Shown piece by piece: positions 8,401-23,294 of a stretch of 32,000 nucleotides of DNA. The stretch is from an uncultured Chloroflexia bacterium (GTDB lineage: Bacteria > Chloroflexota > Ktedonobacteria > Ktedonobacterales > JADMIN01), in assembly GCA_963718915.1 (NCBI GenBank), contig CAVRAI010000015.1:630001-662000 (forward strand). Direction: 5' to 3'. The position numbers and the translations under genes were made by a program. How positions within the stretch are numbered: position 1 is the first letter of the stretch; each line of letters begins with the position of its first letter. The notes beneath the pieces were generated by a model. The model was given only the letters and a program-made list of their open reading frames with translations, was not told where the DNA came from and made no database searches.

Positions 8401-9276
8401 CTATCGGGGTAAGCGGCGCGCCTCCTCCAGATAAGCGGTCACGCCATCATCCAGTTCCTGAGGGTAGGTGTATCCCAGCGCCTGCCCCACCTCAATCGCT
8501 AGCCGTCTGAAGAGCGCGGTCATGACGAAGAGCGCCTCCCAGTTTTCCGCGATGCCTGGCCCTACGTAGGTATGCTCGAACGCCGACCAGAGGTCGGGCG
8601 GCAGTGCGCGCTTCAGTCCTCGGCCCACAACGCCCGGCTTCCATGCCCAGTCATGATCAAGCTCGATGCGCCATTCGAGCAGGGGCAGCAATAATTCGCT
8701 TCTCATGACGACATCGAGGTTATAGCGAGCGAAGACAAGGTCGTCGCGCCAGAGGTTTTTGGCGACATAGGTGGATTCCCACCAGAACTCTTCGATGAGC
8801 GCCAGATATGCCTGTTCGGTGGGTTTCGGCGGAATATGCGCGGTACGGGTGGGCGCTGGCAGGCGCGCGGCCAGCCCATCTTTATCCAGCAAAACGCGAT
8901 AGCCCCAGTCCAGAAAGTCAGTGGATAGCTGTTGCTCTACCAGACGCTGGAGTAGCTCAATGGGCCAGATGGCAAAGTCTATCCTGGTGTGGTCGTGATA
9001 CATCACCAGGCGCATGTGGGTCTCGACACCCAGCACCGCAACCGGGTCGCCAAAGCGCACCAGTGGCTCGCCAAAGAAGCGCTGCCAGTCGTTGTTCTCG
9101 GCGAATGGGCGCGTATCCGAGACGACCAGCAGGATGTCATAGTCGGAGAAGCGGTCGAGCGGCGCCTGTTCGACGGCGCGCGAGCTTTCCAATATGACGG
9201 CGCGGATGAGCGGATGGCTCTCAGCCCACCACACAACTCGCTCCAACACCGCTGCTTCGTCGGGCATCTCTGGCAT
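8401..9276 (-). CDS. Aminoglycoside 6-nucleotidyltransferase, ANT(6)/AadK-like
   Basis: Best start is ATG 9276, preceded by GGGAGA. It matches my recollection of B. subtilis AadK along its length: IRAVILESSRA, DRFSDYDILLVV, FWWESTYVAKNLWRDDLVFA, ELLLPLLEWRI. Confidence 0.7.
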   Translation of the reverse strand: MPEMPDEAAVLERVVWWAESHPLIRAVILESSRAVEQAPLDRFSDYDILLVVSDTRPFAENNDWQRFFGEPLVRFGDPVAVLGVETHMRLVMYHDHTRIDFAIWPIELLQRLVEQQLSTDFLDWGYRVLLDKDGLAARLPAPTRTAHIPPKPTEQAYLALIEEFWWESTYVAKNLWRDDLVFARYNLDVVMRSELLLPLLEWRIELDHDWAWKPGVVGRGLKRALPPDLWSAFEHTYVGPGIAENWEALFVMTALFRRLAIEVGQALGYTYPQELDDGVTAYLEEARRLPR

Positions 9277-9436
9277 AGCGCATCGTCTCCCGCTGGATCC
9301 CTCTATGGTGGTATTCGACCCATACATGAGCCAACCACATCGTACGGCCAGCATGCCTGGGATCGCCGTCAGATATCTGACAGAGTGCCTGCGCCTGCGC
9401 GGCGGGATTGCACTCACCAGCCTCTAACGCGATGAA

Positions 9437-11166: not shown

Positions 11167-13296
11167 TTAATTGCTGGCGCCGTTGAGCTCGCGCTGCCAG
11201 AGCCAGTCGGTGATACGCTCGATTCCGTTGGCGAGGTGATAGCGATAAGTGTTGAAGGGGAGGCCGAGCAGTTCCGCGGCTCGCTCCTGCGTAGGCGCTG
11301 GTTCGATGTAGGTATGCCAGATGGCGCGGTGAAACTTGATCTCCTTCGGGTTCTCCGCCAGACTGGCCACGGCTTCGAGCATGAGCGCCCGCAACGCTTC
11401 GGGTGAGGGGCCTTGCCGGGCGACATCCGCGACCAACCGTGACTGCATCAGCGGATTCGCCGCCAGCTCGCTCGCGTGGGTATAGTCGCGCAACGCCTGA
11501 CGCACCGCATCGGCAAACTCTGGCTGCGAGAGCACCAGCAGTGACGGCGCAGAAGAGAGGGTTGGTGACTGTGTCGTGAGATTCGGGTCGGCGGCCAGGG
11601 TCGCTTTGACGTTGAGCCAATCCATGGCTGGCTCCACGCGCCAGTCGTGCGTAAAGACACCGAAGCGTTGCCCATCAGTCACAAAGTCGGCCTCCGGTGA
11701 GCGCCAGAAATGGACGGCGGTAAAATGGGGTTCGATGAAATCAGGATCGAAGATGGGGATGAAGTTCCAGGCCAGCTTGGGATGAGTAATAAGGTCGATG
11801 GTTGTATTGATCGCCGCGAGATTAAAAGCTGGCGAGACGCCCTGGAAACCCTCGGTGGTCATCCAGAAACGCGCGTAGAGGATTTCTTCGTCCTGCCGCA
11901 GTGGGCCATGACGCGCAATGAAATCTACCGCCGACCGGATCGCTGGATCCGTCGCGATATCCTCTGGACTGGGCTGCCTCAAGAGGAGATGGGCCAGGAG
12001 GCCGAACACGTCGCCGCCCACATTGCGGAGCATGCGAAACGCCTGCGGCTGGCGCTCGAGCCAGTAAGCCGCGATCTTCGCCGAGGCCTCCCCCTGATGG
12101 CGCGCGATCAACGCCAGGATGGTAGGGTGGTCGTGTGCCGATGCCACCTCGGCGTAGGCGCTGCCCAGCGCCGACCATTCATAGTAGGGGCGGTAGACGG
12201 GGCTATGCCGACACAGGTAGAGCAGGGAGAACCAGATGCGCTGTTGCTCCATGCCATAGGCCTGGACAAATCTGGCGTAGAGGGCGGCAAACAGGCGATG
12301 GGTGAGACGGCGGAAGCTCTCGGGATTGCGCCAGCGCCAGTCGGCATCCAGCACCTCGCGCGCCAGATCGTGGGGGAAGAGGCCAAAGGGGCCGTCTTCA
12401 ATGAAGGGGAGTTGGCGCAGCCACTCGAAGAGCGTATGCGCATCACTAACGCTGGCTCCTTCAAGCATATCGCCTAACAAAGTCTCGGTAGTTGCCCACA
12501 TGCGCACGCAGATATCCAGCGCCAGACGATGATCGGCGCTGGGCACATCCTGCACGAGGCGCTCCAGCAGCACGCGCACCACATCTGGCTCAGGTTCATA
12601 GAGCGACGCGCGCGATGGCAACTTTCCCCCACGGCCCAGCACATCGGCGACGAGCGCCAGCGCCAGGGGATGCCCATGCGTAAAGGCCAGAACGTCAGTA
12701 TGCAGATCATCGGGGATGCCGCGCATTGCCAGATAGGTCTGGCACTCGTCCGGGCGCAGATCGCGGAGCGGTGCGATGCGCGCTAACTCTGCCCAGTCAA
12801 TATCGGTACGCCAGGGTGACGTGGGTGGGTTGCGGCTGGCGATCACCACGAGGCTCTGCGCTGGCAGTTGCGGCAGAAACGTCTCACGCAGCCAGCCATC
12901 GAGCGCGGTCAGGATTTCGTAGCGATCAATCAGGAGCACGCCAGCCGATGGCCAGTGTGCGATAACATGCGCCAGACTCACGTCCTCAAGCTCCAGGCAC
13001 TGGCTCAGGGCAAACAGAAACCCCGATGGCGTTGGGTCGATATTTCGCCCATCCACCTGCACGACGATCTTTTCGCCGGTTGCCGCGCGGCGGGCGTATT
13101 CGTGGAGCAGGGTGGTCTTGCCGATGCCACCGGGGCCATAGACGTAGAGCACAGCAAAAGGCGGCTCGGCTGTCTGGATCGCTGCGCAGAACATCTCAAG
13201 TTCATCTGAGCGTCCGACGAAGCGTCCGCGCCGGGCTGCGACCAGCCGATCAGCAATTCGCGGGGTTTGCGCAGTAGCGTGATTCCTGGTAGCCAT
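11167..13296 (-). CDS. P-loop NTPase regulator with C-terminal HTH
   Basis: ATG at 13296. Motifs: Walker A GPGGIGKTTLL, Walker B-like VLLIDRYE, and a C-terminal HTH ERAAELLGLPFNTYRYHLANGIERITDWL. Confidence 0.75.
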   Translation of the reverse strand: MATRNHATAQTPRIADRLVAARRGRFVGRSDELEMFCAAIQTAEPPFAVLYVYGPGGIGKTTLLHEYARRAATGEKIVVQVDGRNIDPTPSGFLFALSQCLELEDVSLAHVIAHWPSAGVLLIDRYEILTALDGWLRETFLPQLPAQSLVVIASRNPPTSPWRTDIDWAELARIAPLRDLRPDECQTYLAMRGIPDDLHTDVLAFTHGHPLALALVADVLGRGGKLPSRASLYEPEPDVVRVLLERLVQDVPSADHRLALDICVRMWATTETLLGDMLEGASVSDAHTLFEWLRQLPFIEDGPFGLFPHDLAREVLDADWRWRNPESFRRLTHRLFAALYARFVQAYGMEQQRIWFSLLYLCRHSPVYRPYYEWSALGSAYAEVASAHDHPTILALIARHQGEASAKIAAYWLERQPQAFRMLRNVGGDVFGLLAHLLLRQPSPEDIATDPAIRSAVDFIARHGPLRQDEEILYARFWMTTEGFQGVSPAFNLAAINTTIDLITHPKLAWNFIPIFDPDFIEPHFTAVHFWRSPEADFVTDGQRFGVFTHDWRVEPAMDWLNVKATLAADPNLTTQSPTLSSAPSLLVLSQPEFADAVRQALRDYTHASELAANPLMQSRLVADVARQGPSPEALRALMLEAVASLAENPKEIKFHRAIWHTYIEPAPTQERAAELLGLPFNTYRYHLANGIERITDWLWQRELNGASN

Positions 13297-13334
13297 TGTC
13301 TCATGCTCTCTGAATGACGCCTGGCATGGAATGG

Positions 13335-13343
13335 AGTATAGCA
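13335..13343 (-). promoter_or_regulatory. Extended -10 promoter element (TGcTATACT) for the P-loop/HTH regulator
   Basis: The minus strand reads gTGCTATACTcc. This is about 40 nt upstream of ATG 13296. No good -35 is present, which is consistent with the extended -10 class. Confidence 0.35.
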
Positions 13344-13385
13344 CACGCCAGACTTCGTGGCGGGCCGCTGCCGATCCATAATTTG

Positions 13386-17615: not shown

Positions 17616-18740
17616 GTGTCCAAGCTTGTTATCTTCGGAAGTGCAGTTGTTGATTTGACCTTCACTGTACGGACATCCCTTCCGAAAGAAGGCGAATCAA
17701 TACCTGGCAAGTTTGAGGCATCCCCAGGTGGAAAAGGGCTCTATCAAGCGGTTGCGTGTGCTCGCCTGTCGTCGAAGTTGTCTTCAACGACATTCATAAG
17801 TTCCATTGGAAATGACCAGTTTGGAGCCCAAGTTCGCGATATTCTCACGATGGAGCATATTCACGAATGCATAGCAAATCAGGATCTTGGTGACAGAGAG
17901 ACAAGTGTAACCGATGTTGTGTGCATGCTGGTAACTCCTGGGAAGACTACTTCATACATAGGGTGTCGGAATGCAACAGATCGATTATCCGCTGACTTTG
18001 TCAGATCCGAGGCTGCAGCTGTGATTCAGGCCGCAGATGTTGTTCTCGTGACATTTGATGCTGCGGTGGAGGCAACGAAGGAGGTCATTTCACTTGCACG
18101 TGCTGCAGGTAAGCCAACCGTCATCAACGCCTCTCCACCTCATGAGAAGATGCCTTTGTCAGTTGTGCAAGGCGCAGACTTTGTGGTTGCGACTCATAAA
18201 GAGGCATGGGAGTGGCTACGCTTGCAAGGACATCTTCAAGCCGACGAATTGGAGAGCAAGGCGGAAGAATCAGTTGCCCGTAAGATCCTGGCGTCGGGCG
18301 CAAAGACCGTAATTCTAACGTTGGACGATAATGGCTGTATAGTGGTTGACTCATTAGGTTCCCGACATTATGAAGCATATACCGGCGGAACACCTATGGG
18401 TGGAACTGGAGCGAGGTCGGCATTCTGCGCAGGCCTTGCTGTTGCTTTGGTGGACCCCTTTGAAGTCGAGTGGGCATTGGCCGACTCAACTCCAGAGTCC
18501 AATCGGATCGCGACCGCATCAGCGGCTCGCTACTTCGCAACTCAAAAGGCAGGCAATATCCAGGCTATGCCTTATCGGGTGGATTTGGAGCGATTCTTCG
18601 AGCGGTGGCCGCCACTGAAGCTGATTTCTCCAAGCGCGGCACAAACGATAACAACCGACAAAGGTTCCGCGCAACCTAATAAGCAGCCAGACTTAAAAGT
18701 GCTAGGCAGCAAGCAGCCTCCAAAAGAACGGACATCCTAG
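17616..18740 (+). CDS. PfkB/ribokinase-fold protein with degenerate catalytic motifs and a low-complexity C-terminal tail
   Basis: GTG follows AGGGGGA. It aligns to E. coli ribokinase: VIFGSAVVDL, LPKEGESIPG..ASPGGKGLYQAVA (GG motif kept). NxxE reads THKE, and signature-2 G-A-G-D reads G-A-R-S (GGTGARSAFCAGLA). Confidence 0.8.
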   Translation: MSKLVIFGSAVVDLTFTVRTSLPKEGESIPGKFEASPGGKGLYQAVACARLSSKLSSTTFISSIGNDQFGAQVRDILTMEHIHECIANQDLGDRETSVTDVVCMLVTPGKTTSYIGCRNATDRLSADFVRSEAAAVIQAADVVLVTFDAAVEATKEVISLARAAGKPTVINASPPHEKMPLSVVQGADFVVATHKEAWEWLRLQGHLQADELESKAEESVARKILASGAKTVILTLDDNGCIVVDSLGSRHYEAYTGGTPMGGTGARSAFCAGLAVALVDPFEVEWALADSTPESNRIATASAARYFATQKAGNIQAMPYRVDLERFFERWPPLKLISPSAAQTITTDKGSAQPNKQPDLKVLGSKQPPKERTS

Positions 18741-18803
18741 CGCCTGGCTAATGCTCAACGTTCCGACCAGATATCTTCTCTGCCAGTATCAGGCGATTTC
18801 GTC

Positions 18804-18830
18804 TTTTTTGGGCATCGTAAGCCCAAAAAG
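18804..18830. other. Stable hairpin between the PfkB-like and Gmk-like genes
   Basis: TTTTTGGGC (18805-18813) - atcgtaa - GCCCAAAAA (18821-18829), about 65 nt after the PfkB-like stop. It is not followed by a U-tract. Confidence 0.4.
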
Positions 18831-18930
18831 TGGCGTGCCGATATACGACAAGTGAATGTTGAAGTCCCCTGATCTTCGTACCATCCCTGAGGCCAGGTAA
18901 TATGGGGAAACTAGAGGAGGGAGTACTCGA

Positions 18931-19593
18931 TTGGCCAAACGAAAGGGGGCGCTCCTGATAGTCAGTGGGCCATCAGGGGTAGGGAAGAACACCCTAGTGA
19001 ATCGCATCTTGCAGGTCGAGAAGAATGTACATCAGATGCCAACAGTCACCACTCGCGCTCCGCGTAATAGCGAGAAAGAAGGTCGGGAACACTTCTTCGT
19101 TACCGAAGCGGTGTTCGATGCCCATGTGCGAGATCAAGCGTTTCTTGAATGGGAGTGGATTCATGGTAATCGCTATGGCACTCTTCGCTCAACAGTAGAT
19201 AGCCTGTTAGCTGCTGGAAAGATTTGCATAGCAGATGTAGATGTCAAGGGAGCGTTGAATCTCAAACAAGAACATCCATTTGGAGTCATAGTTGTTTTCG
19301 TGCTACCTCCGTCGCCTGATGTCCTGCGCAAGCGCATATTGATGCGAGGGCCAGTGTCAAATGAGGAACTTGCAATGAGAATCGACCGAGCTGCCATAGA
19401 AATCGCCCAGGCTGGAAAGTGCGACTATCAACTTGTCAATGACGACCTTGATGCCGCTGTGGCCGCTCTCCTGGGAATTGTTCGGAAACTGAGGGGTAAA
19501 GGCGCTCGGTTCGGGCCATTGCAAGTACGATTCAAGCAACAAAAGCAAGTGCTGGCATCGCGGCGATTAGATTTACGGTCCAATAAGTCATGA
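18931..19593 (+). CDS. gmk: Guanylate kinase family protein (island-borne copy)
   Basis: TTG start follows GGAGGGAG. Motifs: P-loop SGPSGVGKNT, TTRAPRNSEKEGREHFFV, FLEWEWIHGNRYGT, and a Gmk-like lid/C-terminus. It is collinear with E. coli Gmk as I recall it. Confidence 0.8.
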   Translation: MAKRKGALLIVSGPSGVGKNTLVNRILQVEKNVHQMPTVTTRAPRNSEKEGREHFFVTEAVFDAHVRDQAFLEWEWIHGNRYGTLRSTVDSLLAAGKICIADVDVKGALNLKQEHPFGVIVVFVLPPSPDVLRKRILMRGPVSNEELAMRIDRAAIEIAQAGKCDYQLVNDDLDAAVAALLGIVRKLRGKGARFGPLQVRFKQQKQVLASRRLDLRSNKS

Positions 19594-19701: not shown

Positions 19702-20295
19702 ATGAGACGAATTTGTATTTTTGCTGGCAGCAGGAGGGGGATAGACCCTGATTTTCTGCACGCTACTACTCAACTTGCCCGCGCTATCGTTGCCCGGGGA
19801 TGGGGCATTGTCTACGGTGGAGCATCCGTGGGGCTCATGGGAGCACTTGCAGATGCCGCGCTCGCTGCTGGCGGCGAAGTCATTGGAGTCACGCCAAGGA
19901 GTGTCTTCTCTTCCGAGTTGCCTCATTCTGGATTGACAAAATTATATGTAGTTGCGAGCATGCATAGACGTAAGGCGCTCATGGCTGATCTTTCAGACGC
20001 GTTTATTGCCTTGCCAGGCGGGTTTGGAACATTCGATGAACTATTCGAAGTAGTTACATGGGCGCAGTTAGGAATTCACTCCAAGCCCATCGGAATCCTT
20101 GATACATGCGGATACTTCGACCCATTATTAGACCTAATCAAGCATGCAGCACGCTGTGGATTTATCAACCCGGAACACATGTCCTTGATTGAAGCTGATG
20201 CTAAAGTCGATCAACTCCTCGACTCGCTCGCAAGCCGGGCGTCGACAATGAGAAAGAAGGTTAGACCATCAGTGAGCAGCCAACTTAAGCAATAA
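19702..20295 (+). CDS. LOG-family protein (nucleoside 5'-monophosphate phosphoribohydrolase; TIGR00730-type)
   Basis: ATG follows GAGG. Motifs: ICIFAGS, VYGGASVGLMG, and the canonical PGGFGTFDELFE. Confidence 0.85.
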   Translation: MRRICIFAGSRRGIDPDFLHATTQLARAIVARGWGIVYGGASVGLMGALADAALAAGGEVIGVTPRSVFSSELPHSGLTKLYVVASMHRRKALMADLSDAFIALPGGFGTFDELFEVVTWAQLGIHSKPIGILDTCGYFDPLLDLIKHAARCGFINPEHMSLIEADAKVDQLLDSLASRASTMRKKVRPSVSSQLKQ

Positions 20296-20366
20296 CAGTC
20301 GTTGGAAGCTACTTCATCATGCCTATCGTCTGGTCGTTTCTTCCAGAGCCGGAGAAAGGATGCACC

Positions 20367-20738
20367 ATGGATGTCCATCGAGCGATAGAATCTAGATTGC
20401 TGGATTTTCAAGTAGCAGGCGTCTTTCAGTTCGCGCTGTCGCTAGAGCGTGGTAATCATGGGGAGGCAGCCCTCGTTCTGCACAGTACTGCATGCACTGT
20501 CGGATGCAGAGCTGCAGAAGCCAAGGAGTATTTACGACAGTTTGGATTGATTGAACCCAATAGATTTTGCCCCTATTTCTACAGTGGTTGCCAGTATAAG
20601 ATCTTGAGATCGACGGAGAAATATTTTCCAGGTTTCGAATTGCACAGCGATCCTTGGAGCGGCGGTGCGCTGAAGGCAATAGCGGAAGGTTTCGATGCCG
20701 ATTTCAGCGAAGTGCGCGCTCATCAAAACGGTTCTTGA
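20367..20738 (+). CDS. Hypothetical 123-aa protein
   Basis: ATG 20367 is 6 nt after GGAGAAAGGA; the track's start at 20319 lacks an RBS. I recognise no motif. There are five Cys, and a possible HTH-like stretch GEAALVLHSTACTVGCRAAEAKEYLRQFGLIE. Confidence 0.5.
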   Translation: MDVHRAIESRLLDFQVAGVFQFALSLERGNHGEAALVLHSTACTVGCRAAEAKEYLRQFGLIEPNRFCPYFYSGCQYKILRSTEKYFPGFELHSDPWSGGALKAIAEGFDADFSEVRAHQNGS

Positions 20739-20863
20739 TCTCGACGAATTGCGTCAGCCTGCCTCATGGGACGCCCTGCCGTGAGGGTTCAACTGTTATG
20801 AGTGTGTCGAATTTGGCATCTGATGGTACAGGAGATATGGAGAATCACAGGAGGAGTCAGACG

Positions 20864-22891
20864 ATGACGAAAGTGAGCAAGAAAACTGTTAAGGTCTTTT
20901 GCAGCTACTCCCATCGAGATGAGTTACTTCGCGAGACACTCGACAAGCACCTTGCATTTCTCCAAAGGAATGGGACGATTAGCAACTGGAATGATCGAAA
21001 AATTGACGCTGGCGTCAAATGGGAAACCGAGATCAGTGCTCATCTGGAGTCAGCAGATATAGTATTGATGCTCGTAAGCGCCGATTTTATGGCCTCAGAT
21101 TATTGTTACGGAATTGAGATGCAACGGGCGCTTCAACGATTTGACGAGGGATCTGCCCGGGTTATTCCGATAATCCTACGGCCAGTTGACTGGCAAGCCG
21201 CGCCTTTTGCAAAGCTACAGGTGCTCCCACGGGATGCAAAGCCTGTGACTGGGTGGGACGATCCAGAAGAGGCATGGGCGAGTATTGCCACTACAATCCG
21301 CCTTTTGTGTGAAGAGATAGTCGCCGAGGCTGATGTACGGCATATTGATACTACAGAGCGGACTGTGCAACTGACACAGCACGGAGGGATGAGCTATCAA
21401 TTACACGAAGTTTTCGTCAAATCTGGTATGCCAGATATAACCCTGGTAGAGAGGGATGAGTTTGACTCACTCAAGATTGCTATCGCTACACCTGGACGTG
21501 GCGTAGTAATAGAGGGGCCATCAGGAGTTGGCAAGACGACTGCTGTTCGGCAGGCGCTAGCAGAAGCTGGCCAAAGCGGCCACCAATATAGCCAGGTTGG
21601 TGAGCATATTTTGACCGCGAAAAGTCCAGACGACGTAAAATCCCTGTCCCACATCGAGAAGTGGCATACTGGCGCAGTTGTAATCGACGACTTCCATTGC
21701 CTTAATGCACCTCTCCAACTTGAGTTGGTGAATTACCTCAAGCGGCTAGCTGATCAGCAGCCACGTGACAAGAAACTCATACTCATAGGTATTCCTGGTA
21801 CAGGACAACGGCTCGTAGATATATCTCATGATGTAGCAACCCGCATTGACTTGTTTCGTTTCGGCAAAGTCAGTGATCAACTGGTGTTAAGCCTCATACG
21901 CAAGGGAGAAGATGCGCTAAATGTTGAGTTTGATCGGAAGGTTGAGATTGCAATGGCGTCTTCAGGAAGCCTAAATATTGCTCAGTACCTTGGTTTCGAA
22001 ATTTGTGAGAGGGAGCATATACTTCAAACGGCTCCTACCCGTCGCTATATCAGAACAGACCTGGGTTCCGCCGTATCAAGAGTAGTTCGGGATTTGTCGT
22101 CAAAATTCCACGGCCCCATCCGCCAGTTTGCCGCACTTGGCCCACGTACTGACACAACGTGCCTCGAACTGCTCAAAGAATTACCCCATACTCATGACGG
22201 ATTCTTGCCTCTCTTGACGTTGTCTGACAGACGACCTTCCTTGGCGATCGGTATTAGCTCTTTTGTCGATGGGAATTGGATGCAATCCTTATATTCCAGG
22301 CATCCGGAAGTCGCTGATTTCATTTATTTCGATGAAAGTGCTGTGGCGCTTGTTGCAGAGGATCCTCAGCTTACCTTTTATCTAAGCAATGCTAACTTTG
22401 CTCAATTAGAGAACGAAGCAGGCAAGTATATACCCCAAATTCGTAAACGTCTCACCTTTGTGTATAGTCATGTGGATGCGGAATGGCTTGAAAAAATTAG
22501 AATCCATCTTAAGCCCGCTGTTAACGATGCGGATCTTGAGTTGTGGAGTGATACGCGCGTTCAAACGACAGCCAAATGGGCAGACGAGCTTCAGCGTGTA
22601 TTCGACGTTTCCGCCGCAGTCATAATTCTGGTAAGTGCCGATTTTCTGGCGTCGGAGTTTGCTTTACAGCAAAGACTCTATAGCCTTCTTACAATCGCTC
22701 ATGCCAATGGGACAACCATCATTCCATTGATTGTCTCACCTTGTCTATACCGTGGAAGTAGTTTGAGAGGGTATTTGCCGCACGGCTCGCCAGACAGGCC
22801 TTTGACAGCAATGAGGGATTGGGAGCAGGGCAAGACTCTGTTATCACTTACAGAAGCTATTTTAAAACTGGTAAAGCAGGAAAGCAAATGA
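20864..22891 (+). CDS. TIR domain - P-loop NTPase - second (degenerate) TIR-like domain protein
   Basis: ATG 20864 is 7 nt after AGGAGGAG; alternative starts are 20798 and 20837. TIR1: KVFCSYSHRDE ... VSADFMASDYCYGIEMQRAL ... VIPIILRPVDW. Walker A GPSGVGKT (21515-21538) and Walker B VVIDDF (21677-21691). TIR2: LTFVYSHVDAEW ... VSADFLASEFALQQRL ... IIPLIVSPC. Confidence 0.85.
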   Translation: MTKVSKKTVKVFCSYSHRDELLRETLDKHLAFLQRNGTISNWNDRKIDAGVKWETEISAHLESADIVLMLVSADFMASDYCYGIEMQRALQRFDEGSARVIPIILRPVDWQAAPFAKLQVLPRDAKPVTGWDDPEEAWASIATTIRLLCEEIVAEADVRHIDTTERTVQLTQHGGMSYQLHEVFVKSGMPDITLVERDEFDSLKIAIATPGRGVVIEGPSGVGKTTAVRQALAEAGQSGHQYSQVGEHILTAKSPDDVKSLSHIEKWHTGAVVIDDFHCLNAPLQLELVNYLKRLADQQPRDKKLILIGIPGTGQRLVDISHDVATRIDLFRFGKVSDQLVLSLIRKGEDALNVEFDRKVEIAMASSGSLNIAQYLGFEICEREHILQTAPTRRYIRTDLGSAVSRVVRDLSSKFHGPIRQFAALGPRTDTTCLELLKELPHTHDGFLPLLTLSDRRPSLAIGISSFVDGNWMQSLYSRHPEVADFIYFDESAVALVAEDPQLTFYLSNANFAQLENEAGKYIPQIRKRLTFVYSHVDAEWLEKIRIHLKPAVNDADLELWSDTRVQTTAKWADELQRVFDVSAAVIILVSADFLASEFALQQRLYSLLTIAHANGTTIIPLIVSPCLYRGSSLRGYLPHGSPDRPLTAMRDWEQGKTLLSLTEAILKLVKQESK

Positions 22892-23219: not shown

Positions 23220-23294
23220 TGGTGCCCCCAGGGCGACTCGAACGCCCGCCCCCGGCTCCGGAGGCCGGTGCTCTATCCACTGAGCTATGGGGGC
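23220..23294 (-). tRNA. tRNA-Arg (anticodon CCG), CCA encoded
   Basis: Minus strand, 75 nt: GCCCCCA-TA-GCTC-AGTGGATA-GAGC-A-CCGGC-CTCCGGA-GCCGG-GGGC-GGGCG-TTCGAGT-CGCCC-TGGGGGC-A-CCA. All four stems are fully paired, and the T-loop is TTCGAGT. Confidence 0.9.

What the first reader, a model, noticed from the sequence alone, without database searches (positions are those of the whole stretch)
20864..22891. Unusual TIR - P-loop NTPase - TIR architecture with only the first TIR keeping the catalytic Glu
Seen: TIR1 (about 20885-21285) carries the bacterial TIR pattern FCSYSHRDE ... LVSADFMASDYCYGIEMQRAL ... VIPIILRPVDW, with the conserved Glu at codon 21116-21118. A central NTPase has Walker A GPSGVGKT and Walker B VVIDDF, but no obvious C-terminal sensor repeats (TPR/LRR/WD). 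Instead a second TIR-like domain (about 22451-22860) repeats the same scaffold: FVYSHVDAEW ... LVSADFLASEFALQQRL ... IIPLIVSPC. At the position aligned with the Glu it has Gln/Arg. Established: the Glu is required for TIR NADase activity, and TIR enzymes act as head-to-tail oligomers. Inference: the second TIR may be a non-catalytic assembly or regulatory partner, with ATP-dependent oligomerisation switching TIR1 on. I do not recall this arrangement being described; TIR-NLR/Avs-type proteins normally have a repeat sensor.
Basis: partly seen in the sequence, partly recalled or inferred. Interest (0 to 1): 0.65.

Follow-up and report, generated by a model that had tools for sequence, protein, structure and literature searches.

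The report
Two-TIR ATPase immune-type protein
This gene encodes a protein with an NAD-cleaving-type "TIR" domain at each end of an ATP-driven switch; it belongs to a large but unstudied bacterial family, and in this copy the second TIR has lost its catalytic residue and the gene travels with two unusual nucleotide-kinase genes.

Summary
ORF 20864-22891 (+) encodes a 675-aa TIR1 / P-loop NTPase / helical+winged-helix / TIR2 protein with no repeat sensor. Both ends pass Pfam TIR_2, and a TIR2-only model matches solved TIR domains. TIR1 keeps the catalytic-position Glu (E85); TIR2 has Arg (R604), and no alignment shift restores a Glu.

The interpretation needs correcting. The architecture is not a one-off: at least 65 protein clusters share it, in Ktedonobacteria, cyanobacteria and actinomycetes. 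In that family TIR2 normally keeps the Glu (83 of 95). Its loss is confined to a minority, including this protein and its nearest relative. TIR2 is a paralogue of TIR1. The NTPase core is shared with a widespread ~500-aa NTPase-TIR family related to PADLOC candidates PDC-S59 and PDC-S66. Many relatives add a further N-terminal effector domain.

Most likely this is an NLR-like conflict protein. NTP-driven oligomerisation would activate TIR1 as an NADase, with the degenerate TIR2 kept as a scaffold. This is inferred, not shown.

New lead: the gene lies in a low-GC cassette with a divergent PfkB-like kinase lacking the catalytic Asp and a guanylate kinase. That kinase clade recurs beside a TIR protein in two independent lineages.

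No description was found in the searchable literature. I rate it a new variant of a known kind.

The parts
20849..20854 (+). Ribosome-binding site AGGAGG, 9 nt before the ATG
   Evidence: Read directly from the sequence.
20864..22891 (+). Gene for the 675-aa TIR1 / NTPase / winged-helix / TIR2 protein (stop codon included)
   Evidence: ORF list and translation. Full-length AlphaFold model: pLDDT 88, pTM 0.75. 440 homologues at E<1e-5.
20885..21349 (+). TIR1 (residues 8-162); matches 20 of 21 family-conserved columns
   Evidence: Pfam TIR_2, E 4e-24. PADLOC ThsB1 model PDLC00420, 178 bits. Conservation count.
21116..21118 (+). Codon GAG for E85, the catalytic-position Glu of TIR1
   Evidence: This position is Glu in 96 of 108 TIR1 domains of the family.
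21395..21868 (+). P-loop NTPase core (residues 178-335). Walker A GPSGVGKT at 21515-21538, Walker B region AVVIDDFH at 21674-21697, invariant R327 at 21842-21844
   Evidence: Invariant columns in alignment A1. Weak, sub-threshold Pfam hits to AAA_22, nSTAND5 and nSTAND3. Foldseek matches to RPP1, Cdc6/Orc1, RFC, RuvB, Avs4 and Avs5. PADLOC PDC-S59, E 2e-13.
21875..22423 (+). Helical lid plus helical/winged-helix-like region (residues 338-520); no repeat sensor
   Evidence: Secondary structure of the model. No TPR, LRR or WD hit. This region is conserved with the ~500-aa NTPase-TIR family (query residues 179-567).
22442..22888 (+). TIR2 (residues 527-675): a TIR fold that is a degenerate paralogue of TIR1
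   Evidence: Pfam TIR_2, 36.6 bits. Domain model pLDDT 91 with mostly TIR matches in Foldseek. hhalign of TIR1 family against TIR2 family, E 1e-41. Matches 31 of 48 conserved columns against a family median of 45.
22673..22675 (+). Codon AGA for R604, at the position of the catalytic Glu in TIR2
   Evidence: Other family-conserved residues lost in TIR2: G->T569, P->Y606, Q->L638, N->G641.
17616..18740 (+). Cassette gene: divergent PfkB-like (ribokinase-fold) protein. 'TGARSAF' replaces the canonical 'TGAGDAF', so the catalytic Asp is Ser
   Evidence: Pfam PfkB. Alignment to solved ribokinases. Clade alignment. Only 5 clusters carry the motif.
18931..19593 (+). Cassette gene: guanylate kinase
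   Evidence: NCBIfam TIGR03263, 176.5 bits against a cut-off of 160.45. Conserved next to the PfkB-like and TIR genes in L001.
19702..20295 (+). Island gene: LOG / TIGR00730 phosphoribohydrolase-type (SLOG superfamily) protein. Present here and in L169, absent from the L001 cassette
20319..20738 (+). Island ORF of 139 aa with no family match; coding status uncertain
23220..23294 (-). tRNA-Arg(CCG). Its 3' end faces the low-GC island and marks the island's right border
   Evidence: ARAGORN and Rfam. GC drops to 0.47-0.53 over about 17.0-23.2 kb, against 0.60-0.66 in the flanks.

Best explanation
The gene encodes a single-chain, NLR-like conflict (probably anti-phage) protein. A central P-loop NTPase of the STAND / ORC-Cdc6 type, with lid and winged-helix-like modules, is flanked by two paralogous TIR domains.

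It belongs to a large family found mostly in filamentous bacteria. The family shares its NTPase core with a widespread ~500-aa NTPase-TIR family. Its members carry a TIR1-type domain at both ends, and many add a further N-terminal effector.

Proposed mechanism (inferred, not shown): a trigger allows NTP-dependent oligomerisation. This packs TIR domains into arrays that form composite NAD+-cleaving active sites, and the result is NAD+ depletion or production of an ADPR-derived signal.

In this protein TIR1 is the only catalytic TIR. TIR2 has lost the Glu and several other family-conserved residues, but it is retained under constraint as a structural or regulatory partner for TIR1.

The gene was acquired horizontally as part of a low-GC cassette next to tRNA-Arg.
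For: Shown by tools:
- Domain identities and folds.
- TIR1 is intact. E85 is present, 20 of 21 conserved columns match, and the ThsB-type TIR model scores 178 bits.
- NTPase motifs are invariant across 56 aligned homologues: G218, P219, G221, G223, K224, H278 and R327; D275, D276 and F277 are conserved in at least 90%.
- TIR2 lacks the Glu and matches 31 of 48 conserved columns. It is still 51% identical to P0002's TIR2 in an intact ORF.
- TIR2 is a paralogue of TIR1 (hhalign E 1e-41). The C-terminal TIR of the short family is only distantly related (E 0.01-0.04).
- Relatives carry swappable N-terminal domains typical of conflict systems: PNP_UDP, caspase, SIR2_2, protein kinase, CHAT and DUF4062.
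- Some family loci lie within about 3.5 kb of known or candidate defence genes: one DISARM (DrmABC) locus and HEC-01 hits.
- Short-family members occur on 54 plasmid records.
- No partner gene is conserved family-wide, so the protein is probably self-contained.
- The island has low GC and abuts a tRNA gene.

From established knowledge: the Glu is required for TIR NADase activity, TIR active sites form between neighbouring TIRs, and STAND/NLR proteins are activated by nucleotide-dependent oligomerisation.
Against: - No biochemical or phage data exist for any member of the family.
- No sensor domain or trigger is identified.
- The NTPase does not reach the curated cut-off of any Pfam STAND family: nSTAND5 21.9 against 34, nSTAND3 19.7 against 27.2, NACHT 12.9 against 26.7.
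- The invariant R327 sits where an AAA+ arginine finger would be. The assembly mode (ring, spiral or NLR-like wheel) is therefore open.
- Most relatives keep the Glu in both TIRs, so a scaffold-only TIR2 cannot be the general mechanism.
- The defence-island association is modest and was not compared with a background rate.
- The co-travelling kinase genes hint that this copy may not act alone.
- I could not inspect inter-domain contacts in the model.
Confidence: 0.55

Rival explanations
1. This is a multi-gene system. The TIR / NTPase / TIR protein works together with the co-transferred PfkB-like protein and NMP kinase, plus LOG in this genome. Either the kinases process a ribose- or nucleotide-type product of TIR1 into a signal, a toxic nucleotide or a recycling intermediate, or the degenerate TIR2 has become a sensor for a small molecule they make.
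For: - The PfkB-like, Gmk and TIR-NTPase-TIR genes are the only genes shared between the window and contig L001. In both they form a low-GC block (0.48-0.52) inside ~0.65-GC DNA with unrelated flanks.
- The PfkB-like clade is tiny. Five clusters carry the conserved 'GARS' in place of 'GAGD'.
- A 35%-identical member sits in the order 230-aa ORF, PfkB-like, cytidylate kinase, TIR + beta-helix protein. That TIR belongs to an unrelated lineage.
- Two other members sit directly downstream of a TPR protein.
- The clade with the PfkB/Gmk neighbours is also the one whose TIR2 has diverged most among members without an extra effector.
Against: - There are only two independent lineages with a TIR neighbour, and the contigs are short.
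- None of about 160 other family loci has PfkB or Gmk neighbours.
- Two PfkB-like contexts look like ordinary nucleotide metabolism: dCTP deaminase plus ribonucleotide reductase, and an HD phosphohydrolase.
- The Gmk passes the housekeeping guanylate-kinase model.
- The PfkB-like protein lacks the canonical catalytic Asp and the Asn of NxxE, so it may not be a kinase at all.
Confidence: 0.2
2. The protein is not an immune protein. It and the island genes serve nucleotide salvage or turnover, with the TIR domains acting as N-glycosidases on nucleotides alongside a sugar/nucleoside kinase, an NMP kinase and LOG.
For: - All four annotated island genes have nucleotide-related folds.
- The TIR, DRHyd and SLOG folds are evolutionarily related nucleotide-processing domains (Kaur et al. 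2020, PMC7159879, citing Burroughs et al. 2015).
- Other PfkB-like clade members sit next to DCD, RNR and HD genes.
Against: - Family members elsewhere have no such neighbours.
- Relatives fuse caspase, SIR2, kinase and CHAT domains, which are typical of conflict systems.
- The distribution is patchy, the gene lies in a low-GC island, and short-family members occur on plasmids.
- A regulated AAA+/STAND switch is not expected for a salvage enzyme.
Confidence: 0.1
3. TIR2 is decaying. It is a relic of an internal duplication under relaxed selection with no remaining role, or the whole gene is drifting toward loss of function.
For: TIR2 of this protein and of P0002 rank fifth and sixth lowest of 95 for matches to family-conserved residues. 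Mean identity to other TIR2 domains is 0.36, against 0.56-0.58 for typical members.
Against: - The ORF is intact in two genomes that are only 55% identical overall.
- TIR2 is still 51% identical between them, comparable to the MID region at 48%.
- The TIR2 model is confident (pLDDT 91).
- TIR1 and the NTPase motifs are intact.
- Members with other effectors also keep a degenerate TIR2 rather than deleting it.
Confidence: 0.1

Closest known systems
Plant TIR-NLRs (RPP1, ROQ1) and bacterial TIR-carrying STAND/NLR-like defence proteins (Avs, TIR-NLR types)
   Same: An N-terminal TIR is followed by a P-loop NTPase with helical and winged-helix-like modules. The best full-length Foldseek hits are RPP1 chains, and Avs4 and Avs5 also match. 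The expected logic is the same: oligomerisation switches on a TIR NADase.
   Different: There is no LRR, TPR or WD sensor; a second TIR sits at the C-terminus instead. No NACHT, NB-ARC or nSTAND model reaches its curated cut-off. An invariant Arg lies at the position of an AAA+ arginine finger.
~500-aa NTPase-TIR proteins related to PADLOC candidates PDC-S59 (NTPase part) and PDC-S66 (TIR part)
   Same: The NTPase plus middle region is homologous: 30-35% identity over query residues 179-567, and the PDC-S59 model hits both proteins. Both are single-gene, lack a sensor repeat and end in a TIR.
   Different: They have no N-terminal TIR. Their C-terminal TIR (motif 'YDFALSFAG...WTKFES') is a distant lineage from TIR2 (hhalign E 0.04). 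These are untested candidate systems, and I found no paper on them.
Thoeris ThsB
   Same: TIR1 matches the PADLOC ThsB1 model PDLC00420 at 178 bits (E 8e-53), and TIR2 matches it at 40 bits.
   Different: No ThsA (SIR2, Macro or TM domain plus SLOG) is nearby. The only SLOG-superfamily neighbour is a stand-alone LOG enzyme, which is absent from the sister cassette. Here the TIR is fused to an NTPase.
Paired TIRs with one non-catalytic partner: RPS4/RRS1 heterodimer, SPARTA TIR-APAZ assemblies
   Same: This is an analogy for TIR1 (Glu) working with TIR2 (no Glu). The RRS1 TIR is among the best TM-score matches of the TIR2 model (TM 0.61-0.67). In locus L172, a family member whose TIR2 lacks the Glu is followed by a paralogue whose TIR2 keeps it.
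   Different: Here the two TIRs are in one chain separated by an NTPase. The regulatory role of RRS1 comes from my recollection of the literature and was not tested here.
SARM1
   Same: Its TIR NADase is controlled by oligomerisation and by regulatory domains in the same chain. It is the top Foldseek hit of the TIR2 model.
   Different: SARM1 has ARM and SAM domains and no NTPase. It has a single TIR, which is catalytic.

Membership tests
TIR domain (Pfam TIR_2 / TIR) | Sequence match above the curated cut-off | tested here: met
   TIR1: whole-protein score 85.8 bits. TIR2 alone: 36.6 bits. The cut-off is 28.
TIR domain (Pfam TIR_2 / TIR) | Flavodoxin-like alternating beta/alpha TIR fold | tested here: met
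   Models have pLDDT 88 (full length) and 91 (TIR2 alone). The two domains show the same strand/helix order. Most Foldseek matches of TIR2 are TIR domains, though E-values are weak and a few other flavodoxin-like folds appear.
Catalytic (NADase) TIR | Conserved Glu at the start of the alpha-C helix | tested here: met
   This row concerns TIR1. E85 is present, and the position is Glu in 96 of 108 family TIR1 domains.
Catalytic (NADase) TIR | Conserved Glu at the start of the alpha-C helix, in TIR2 | tested here: not met
   R604 occupies the position. The family TIR2 Glu aligns with the Glu of the plant TIR 'DEL' motif. No alignment shift restores a Glu.
Catalytic (NADase) TIR | NAD+ cleavage activity | not testable with these tools
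   This needs an enzyme assay.
STAND / NLR-like NTPases (NACHT, NB-ARC, nSTAND, Avs) | P-loop NTPase with Walker A and Walker B motifs | tested here: met
   GPSGVGKT and VVIDDF are present, with invariant or >=90% conserved columns across 56 homologues.
STAND / NLR-like NTPases (NACHT, NB-ARC, nSTAND, Avs) | Match to a curated STAND family model above its cut-off | tested here: not met
   nSTAND5 21.9 against 34; nSTAND3 19.7 against 27.2; NACHT 12.9 against 26.7; NB-ARC 11.7 against 23.5.
STAND / NLR-like NTPases (NACHT, NB-ARC, nSTAND, Avs) | NBD, helical and winged-helix module resembling solved STAND proteins | tested here: inconclusive
   Foldseek hits RPP1, Avs4 and Avs5, but Cdc6/Orc1, RFC and RuvB score equally well. 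I could not inspect coordinates.
STAND / NLR-like NTPases (NACHT, NB-ARC, nSTAND, Avs) | C-terminal repeat sensor (LRR, TPR or WD40) | tested here: not met
   No repeat family is detected, and the C-terminus is a TIR.
Thoeris | ThsB-type TIR protein | tested here: met
   PADLOC ThsB1 model PDLC00420, E 8e-53, for TIR1.
Thoeris | Adjacent ThsA effector (SIR2, Macro or TM domain with SLOG) | tested here: not met
   No such gene lies in the island. There is only a stand-alone LOG enzyme. No partner is conserved family-wide.
PADLOC candidates PDC-S59 / PDC-S66 | Full-length match to the candidate models | tested here: inconclusive
   PDC-S59 matches only query residues 250-398, corresponding to model positions 133-279 of 428 (E 1e-12). 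PDC-S66 does not hit the query, although it hits the short family's TIR.

The most novel reading that the evidence does not exclude
The gene is one component of an undescribed mobile cassette type. In it, a catalytically re-wired PfkB-like protein ('GARS' in place of 'GAGD') and an NMP kinase (Gmk here, Cmk elsewhere) partner with TIR proteins, and possibly with STAND-type proteins.

The pair would phosphorylate a ribose-bearing TIR product. One speculative possibility is stepwise conversion of an ADP-ribose-type product to a pyrophosphorylated intermediate, analogous to the PRPP-forming, Gmk-like enzyme PhnN. The result could be a signal, a toxic nucleotide, or NAD+ recycling that limits self-damage.

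The Glu-less TIR2 of this clade would then have been repurposed as the binding or regulatory site for that molecule.
Probability: 0.2. Interest if true: 0.8.

Novelty: new variant of a known kind. Interest (0 to 1): 0.5.

Why it matters
TIR domains fused to NLR-type ATPases are central to immunity in plants and bacteria. How TIR-TIR contacts create and control the active site is an active question.

A large natural family with two paralogous TIRs on one ATPase offers a ready comparative series. Either TIR has lost its catalytic residue in different lineages. Extra effectors (SIR2, caspase, kinase, PNP) have been added in others.

This series could be used to separate the scaffold role of a TIR from its catalytic role. 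It could also show how a repeat-less ATPase senses its trigger.

If the kinase cassette proves functional, it would add an enzymatic step (phosphorylation) downstream of, or alongside, TIR chemistry.

Tried and rejected
1. Island ends. I looked for att-type direct repeats of the tRNA 3' end or an integrase. Only short chance repeats turned up, and no integrase.
2. Family-wide partner gene. All-against-all clustering of neighbour ORFs from 82 loci found only genus-level synteny and generic ABC ATPases.
3. PfkB, Gmk, LOG and ORF139 next to other family members. tblastn over 162 loci found them only in L001 and L002.
4. A metagenome scan for closer relatives of the query found none above about 49% identity.
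5. Thoeris membership is rejected because there is no ThsA.
6. A promoter and terminator scan of the island gave counts at chance level.
7. Phage genomes gave no match. Plasmids carry only the short family or TIR1-like single domains.
8. The protein upstream of the PfkB-like gene in L170 and L163 shows only weak TPR hits and no PDB sequence match. Reading its 'GGLPLAIELAA' stretch as an NB-ARC GLPLA motif is by eye only.
9. Literature searches (nSTAND+TIR, TIR-STAND, PDC-S59, PfkB+TIR, 'two TIR domains', cytidylate kinase+TIR, N-/C-terminal TIR) found no description. The supplement of PMC13581612 is not held.
10. Rescue of a TIR2 Glu by an alignment shift is rejected. E598 corresponds to the conserved D79 of TIR1.
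Full report
THE OBSERVATION

The ORF at 20864-22891 (+) starts at an ATG nine bases after AGGAGG and encodes 675 aa. The E85 codon GAG is at 21116-21118.

Pfam TIR_2 hits both ends. The whole-protein E-value is 4e-24, with the best stretch at residues 11-119. The last 155 aa alone score 36.6 bits against a gathering cut-off of 28. The two ends align to each other at 25% identity, E 8e-13.

DOMAIN STRUCTURE

A full-length AlphaFold model built on 56 homologues has pLDDT 88 and pTM 0.75. Its layout is:
- TIR1, residues 9-162
- a disordered linker, residues 164-172
- a P-loop core, residues 180-335
- a helical lid, residues 338-385
- a helical region with a beta-hairpin, residues 400-520
- TIR2, residues 529-674

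The full-length model matches the plant TIR-NLR RPP1, Cdc6/Orc1, RFC, RuvB, Avs4 and Avs5. A separate TIR2 model (pLDDT 91) matches mostly TIR domains: SARM1, TLR1/2/10, MAL, MyD88, RRS1/RPS4 and SPARTA TIRs, with TM 0.5-0.67. The E-values are weak, and a few other flavodoxin-like folds appear in the list.

THE GLU POSITION

A profile of the TIR2 family aligns its conserved Glu with the Glu of the 'DEL' motif in plant TIR AT1G72930, the catalytic Glu of plant TIRs by prior knowledge. The query has R604 there (AGA, 22673-22675). In both domain models the residue lies at the same place, the second residue of helix 84-95. E598 corresponds to D79 of TIR1, which is conserved in both domains, so no shift restores a Glu.

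No TPR, LRR or WD repeat is detected.

THE FAMILY

The protein has 440 homologues at E<1e-5. About 65 clusters at 90% identity have the same TIR1 / NTPase / middle / TIR2 layout at roughly 670 aa and 40-55% identity. An exhaustive HMMER scan finds 5,832 clusters (50% identity) at E<=1e-30, a count that also includes proteins sharing only one TIR or the NTPase.

Genome hits are in Ktedonobacteria and Thermogemmatispora, cyanobacteria, Pseudonocardiaceae and other actinomycetes, Chitinophagaceae and Saprospiraceae.

Many members place an extra domain in front of TIR1. These include PNP_UDP, caspase, SIR2_2, protein kinase, CHAT, HTH and DUF4062. A few members lack TIR2 or TIR1.

The aligned position is Glu in 96 of 108 TIR1 domains and in 83 of 95 TIR2 domains. 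The Arg is shared only with the nearest relative, P0002 (55% identity). Ten other TIR2 domains lost the Glu to assorted residues. Several DUF4062-bearing members lost it in TIR1 instead.

'Only the first TIR is catalytic' is therefore a lineage trait, not the logic of the architecture.

HOW FAR TIR2 HAS DIVERGED

TIR2 of the query matches 31 of 48 family-conserved columns, and P0002's matches 28. The family median is 45. TIR1 matches 20 of 21. Losses in the query include G->T569, E->R604, P->Y606, Q->L638 and N->G641.

The only TIR2 domains more degenerate than these belong to members with an N-terminal kinase or SIR2 domain.

Mean identity of the query TIR2 to other TIR2 domains is 0.36, against 0.56-0.58 for typical members. 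Between the query and P0002, however, TIR2 is still 51% identical, compared with 69% for TIR1, 58% for the NTPase and 48% for the middle region. TIR2 has diverged but is retained.

ORIGIN OF THE ARCHITECTURE

A wider family of ~500-aa proteins is found in many phyla and on 54 plasmid records. It shares the NTPase and middle region at 30-35% identity over query residues 179-567. It ends in a TIR_2 domain and hits the PADLOC candidates PDC-S59 and PDC-S66.

That C-terminal TIR is only distantly related to TIR2 (hhalign E 0.04). The TIR1 and TIR2 families, by contrast, are close paralogues (E 1e-41). TIR2 therefore arose by duplication of a TIR1-type domain.

TIR1 itself scores 178 bits against a PADLOC ThsB model. 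No ThsA is present, so this is not Thoeris.

MECHANISM

What follows is inferred. The NTPase motifs are invariant or nearly so: G218, P219, G221, G223, K224, D275, D276, F277, H278 and R327. TIR1 is intact.

By analogy with TIR-NLRs, Avs proteins and SARM1, I propose that nucleotide-dependent oligomerisation brings TIRs together. This would build NAD+-cleaving sites. E85 of TIR1 would be the only catalytic residue, and TIR2 would act as a scaffold or regulator.

Support for a conflict role comes from three observations:
- the effector domains fused in relatives;
- a DISARM locus and HEC-01 hits among 124 neighbour ORFs of 27 family loci;
- the horizontal-transfer signature of the locus.

No partner gene is conserved family-wide. 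The trigger is unknown. The NTPase passes no curated STAND model. R327 lies where an AAA+ arginine finger would be, so the geometry of assembly is open.

One informative relative is P0047, whose TIR2 has Ala at the Glu position. Sixty-four bases downstream lies a 504-aa paralogue with NTPase, middle region and a TIR2 that keeps the Glu. This suggests that family members can work as pairs and that a Glu-less TIR2 can be complemented.

GENOMIC CONTEXT: A NEW LEAD

The gene lies in a low-GC block (0.47-0.53, against 0.60-0.66 in the flanks) from about 17.0 to 23.2 kb, ending at tRNA-Arg(CCG). The block holds five genes:
- a PfkB-like gene (17616-18740)
- a guanylate kinase (18931-19593)
- a LOG/TIGR00730 gene (19702-20295)
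- a 139-aa ORF (20319-20738)
- the TIR gene

In the contig of P0002, the PfkB-like (58% identity), Gmk (58% identity) and TIR genes are again adjacent. They again form a low-GC block (0.48-0.52) in ~0.65-GC DNA, and nothing else is shared with the window.

The PfkB-like protein belongs to a very small clade. Five clusters carry an invariant 'TGARSAF' where ribokinases have 'T(G/A)AGD(A/T)F'. The catalytic Asp is thus Ser, and the Asn of NxxE is also lost.

Other members of this clade have the following contexts:
- A 35%-identical member lies in the order 230-aa ORF, PfkB-like, cytidylate kinase, TIR + beta-helix protein. That TIR is from an unrelated lineage.
- Two further members lie after a TPR protein truncated by the contig end. 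They are followed by cytidylate kinase, and then by an HD phosphohydrolase in one case and by dCTP deaminase and ribonucleotide reductase in the other.

The trio of PfkB-like protein, NMP kinase and TIR protein therefore recurs in two independent lineages. This is suggestive of a functional link but thin. None of about 160 other family loci has these neighbours. Ordinary nucleotide metabolism is a live alternative.

NOVELTY

I found no paper in the held library describing a TIR / NTPase / TIR protein, PDC-S59, or a PfkB+TIR system. The components and the general logic are known. The dual-TIR, repeat-less arrangement and its variants are not described. I rate it a new variant of a known kind, with interest 0.5.

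Noticed in passing
window 17616-19593; L001 8082-12025: The PfkB-like, guanylate kinase and TIR-NTPase-TIR genes form a low-GC block in two otherwise unrelated high-GC contexts. They are the only genes shared between the window and L001.
   Followed up: yes
window 17616-18740 (motif at about residues 264-270): The PfkB-like protein has a conserved 'TGARSAF' in place of the ribokinase 'TGAGDAF', so the catalytic Asp is Ser. It also lacks the Asn of the NxxE motif. Only five clusters in the 5.8-billion-protein collection share this motif.
   Followed up: partly
L165 498-4469 (also L164, L166-L168): A distant member of the same PfkB-like clade sits in the order 230-aa ORF, PfkB-like, cytidylate kinase, 380-aa TIR + beta-helix protein. 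This block also has lower GC than its flanks. The TIR keeps the Glu and belongs to a different TIR lineage.
   Followed up: partly
L163 3-740 and L170 2-1363: Two more PfkB-like + cytidylate kinase pairs lie just downstream of homologous TPR-containing proteins (65% identical to each other). These proteins are cut by the contig end. One shows a 'GGLPLAIELAA' stretch that resembles the NB-ARC GLPLA motif by eye only. Their N-terminal domains are unknown.
   Followed up: partly
window 19702-20295 and 20319-20738: A LOG/TIGR00730 (SLOG superfamily) gene and a 139-aa ORF with no family match lie between the guanylate kinase and the TIR gene. They are also present in L169 but absent from the sister cassette in L001.
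   Followed up: partly
L172 771-4361: A dual-TIR family member whose TIR2 has Ala at the Glu position is followed 64 nt downstream by a 504-aa paralogue. The paralogue has NTPase, middle region and a TIR2 that keeps the Glu, and its Walker B acidic pair reads DS. P0054 has a similar downstream gene. These may be paired family members.
   Followed up: partly
homologues P0077-P0097 and others: DUF4062-bearing relatives have a degenerate TIR1, several without the Glu, while TIR2 stays intact. This is the mirror image of the query. Members with a kinase or SIR2 domain have the most degenerate TIR2.
   Followed up: partly
L169 (ENA ERZ25039457 contig_68081): A 99%-identical copy of the island exists in a public metagenome assembly. 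There the TIR gene is split into several short called genes, probably because of assembly indels.
   Followed up: no
window 18967-18988 and 21515-21536: A 22-nt direct repeat (86% identity) links the P-loop codons (GPSGVGK) of the guanylate kinase and of the TIR-NTPase gene. It is most likely a coincidence of the shared motif.
   Followed up: no
window 11167-13344 (-) and 8401-9417 (-): A 725-aa protein with an AAA_16 domain, possibly another STAND-type regulator, and a streptomycin adenylyltransferase-family gene lie upstream of the island.
   Followed up: no
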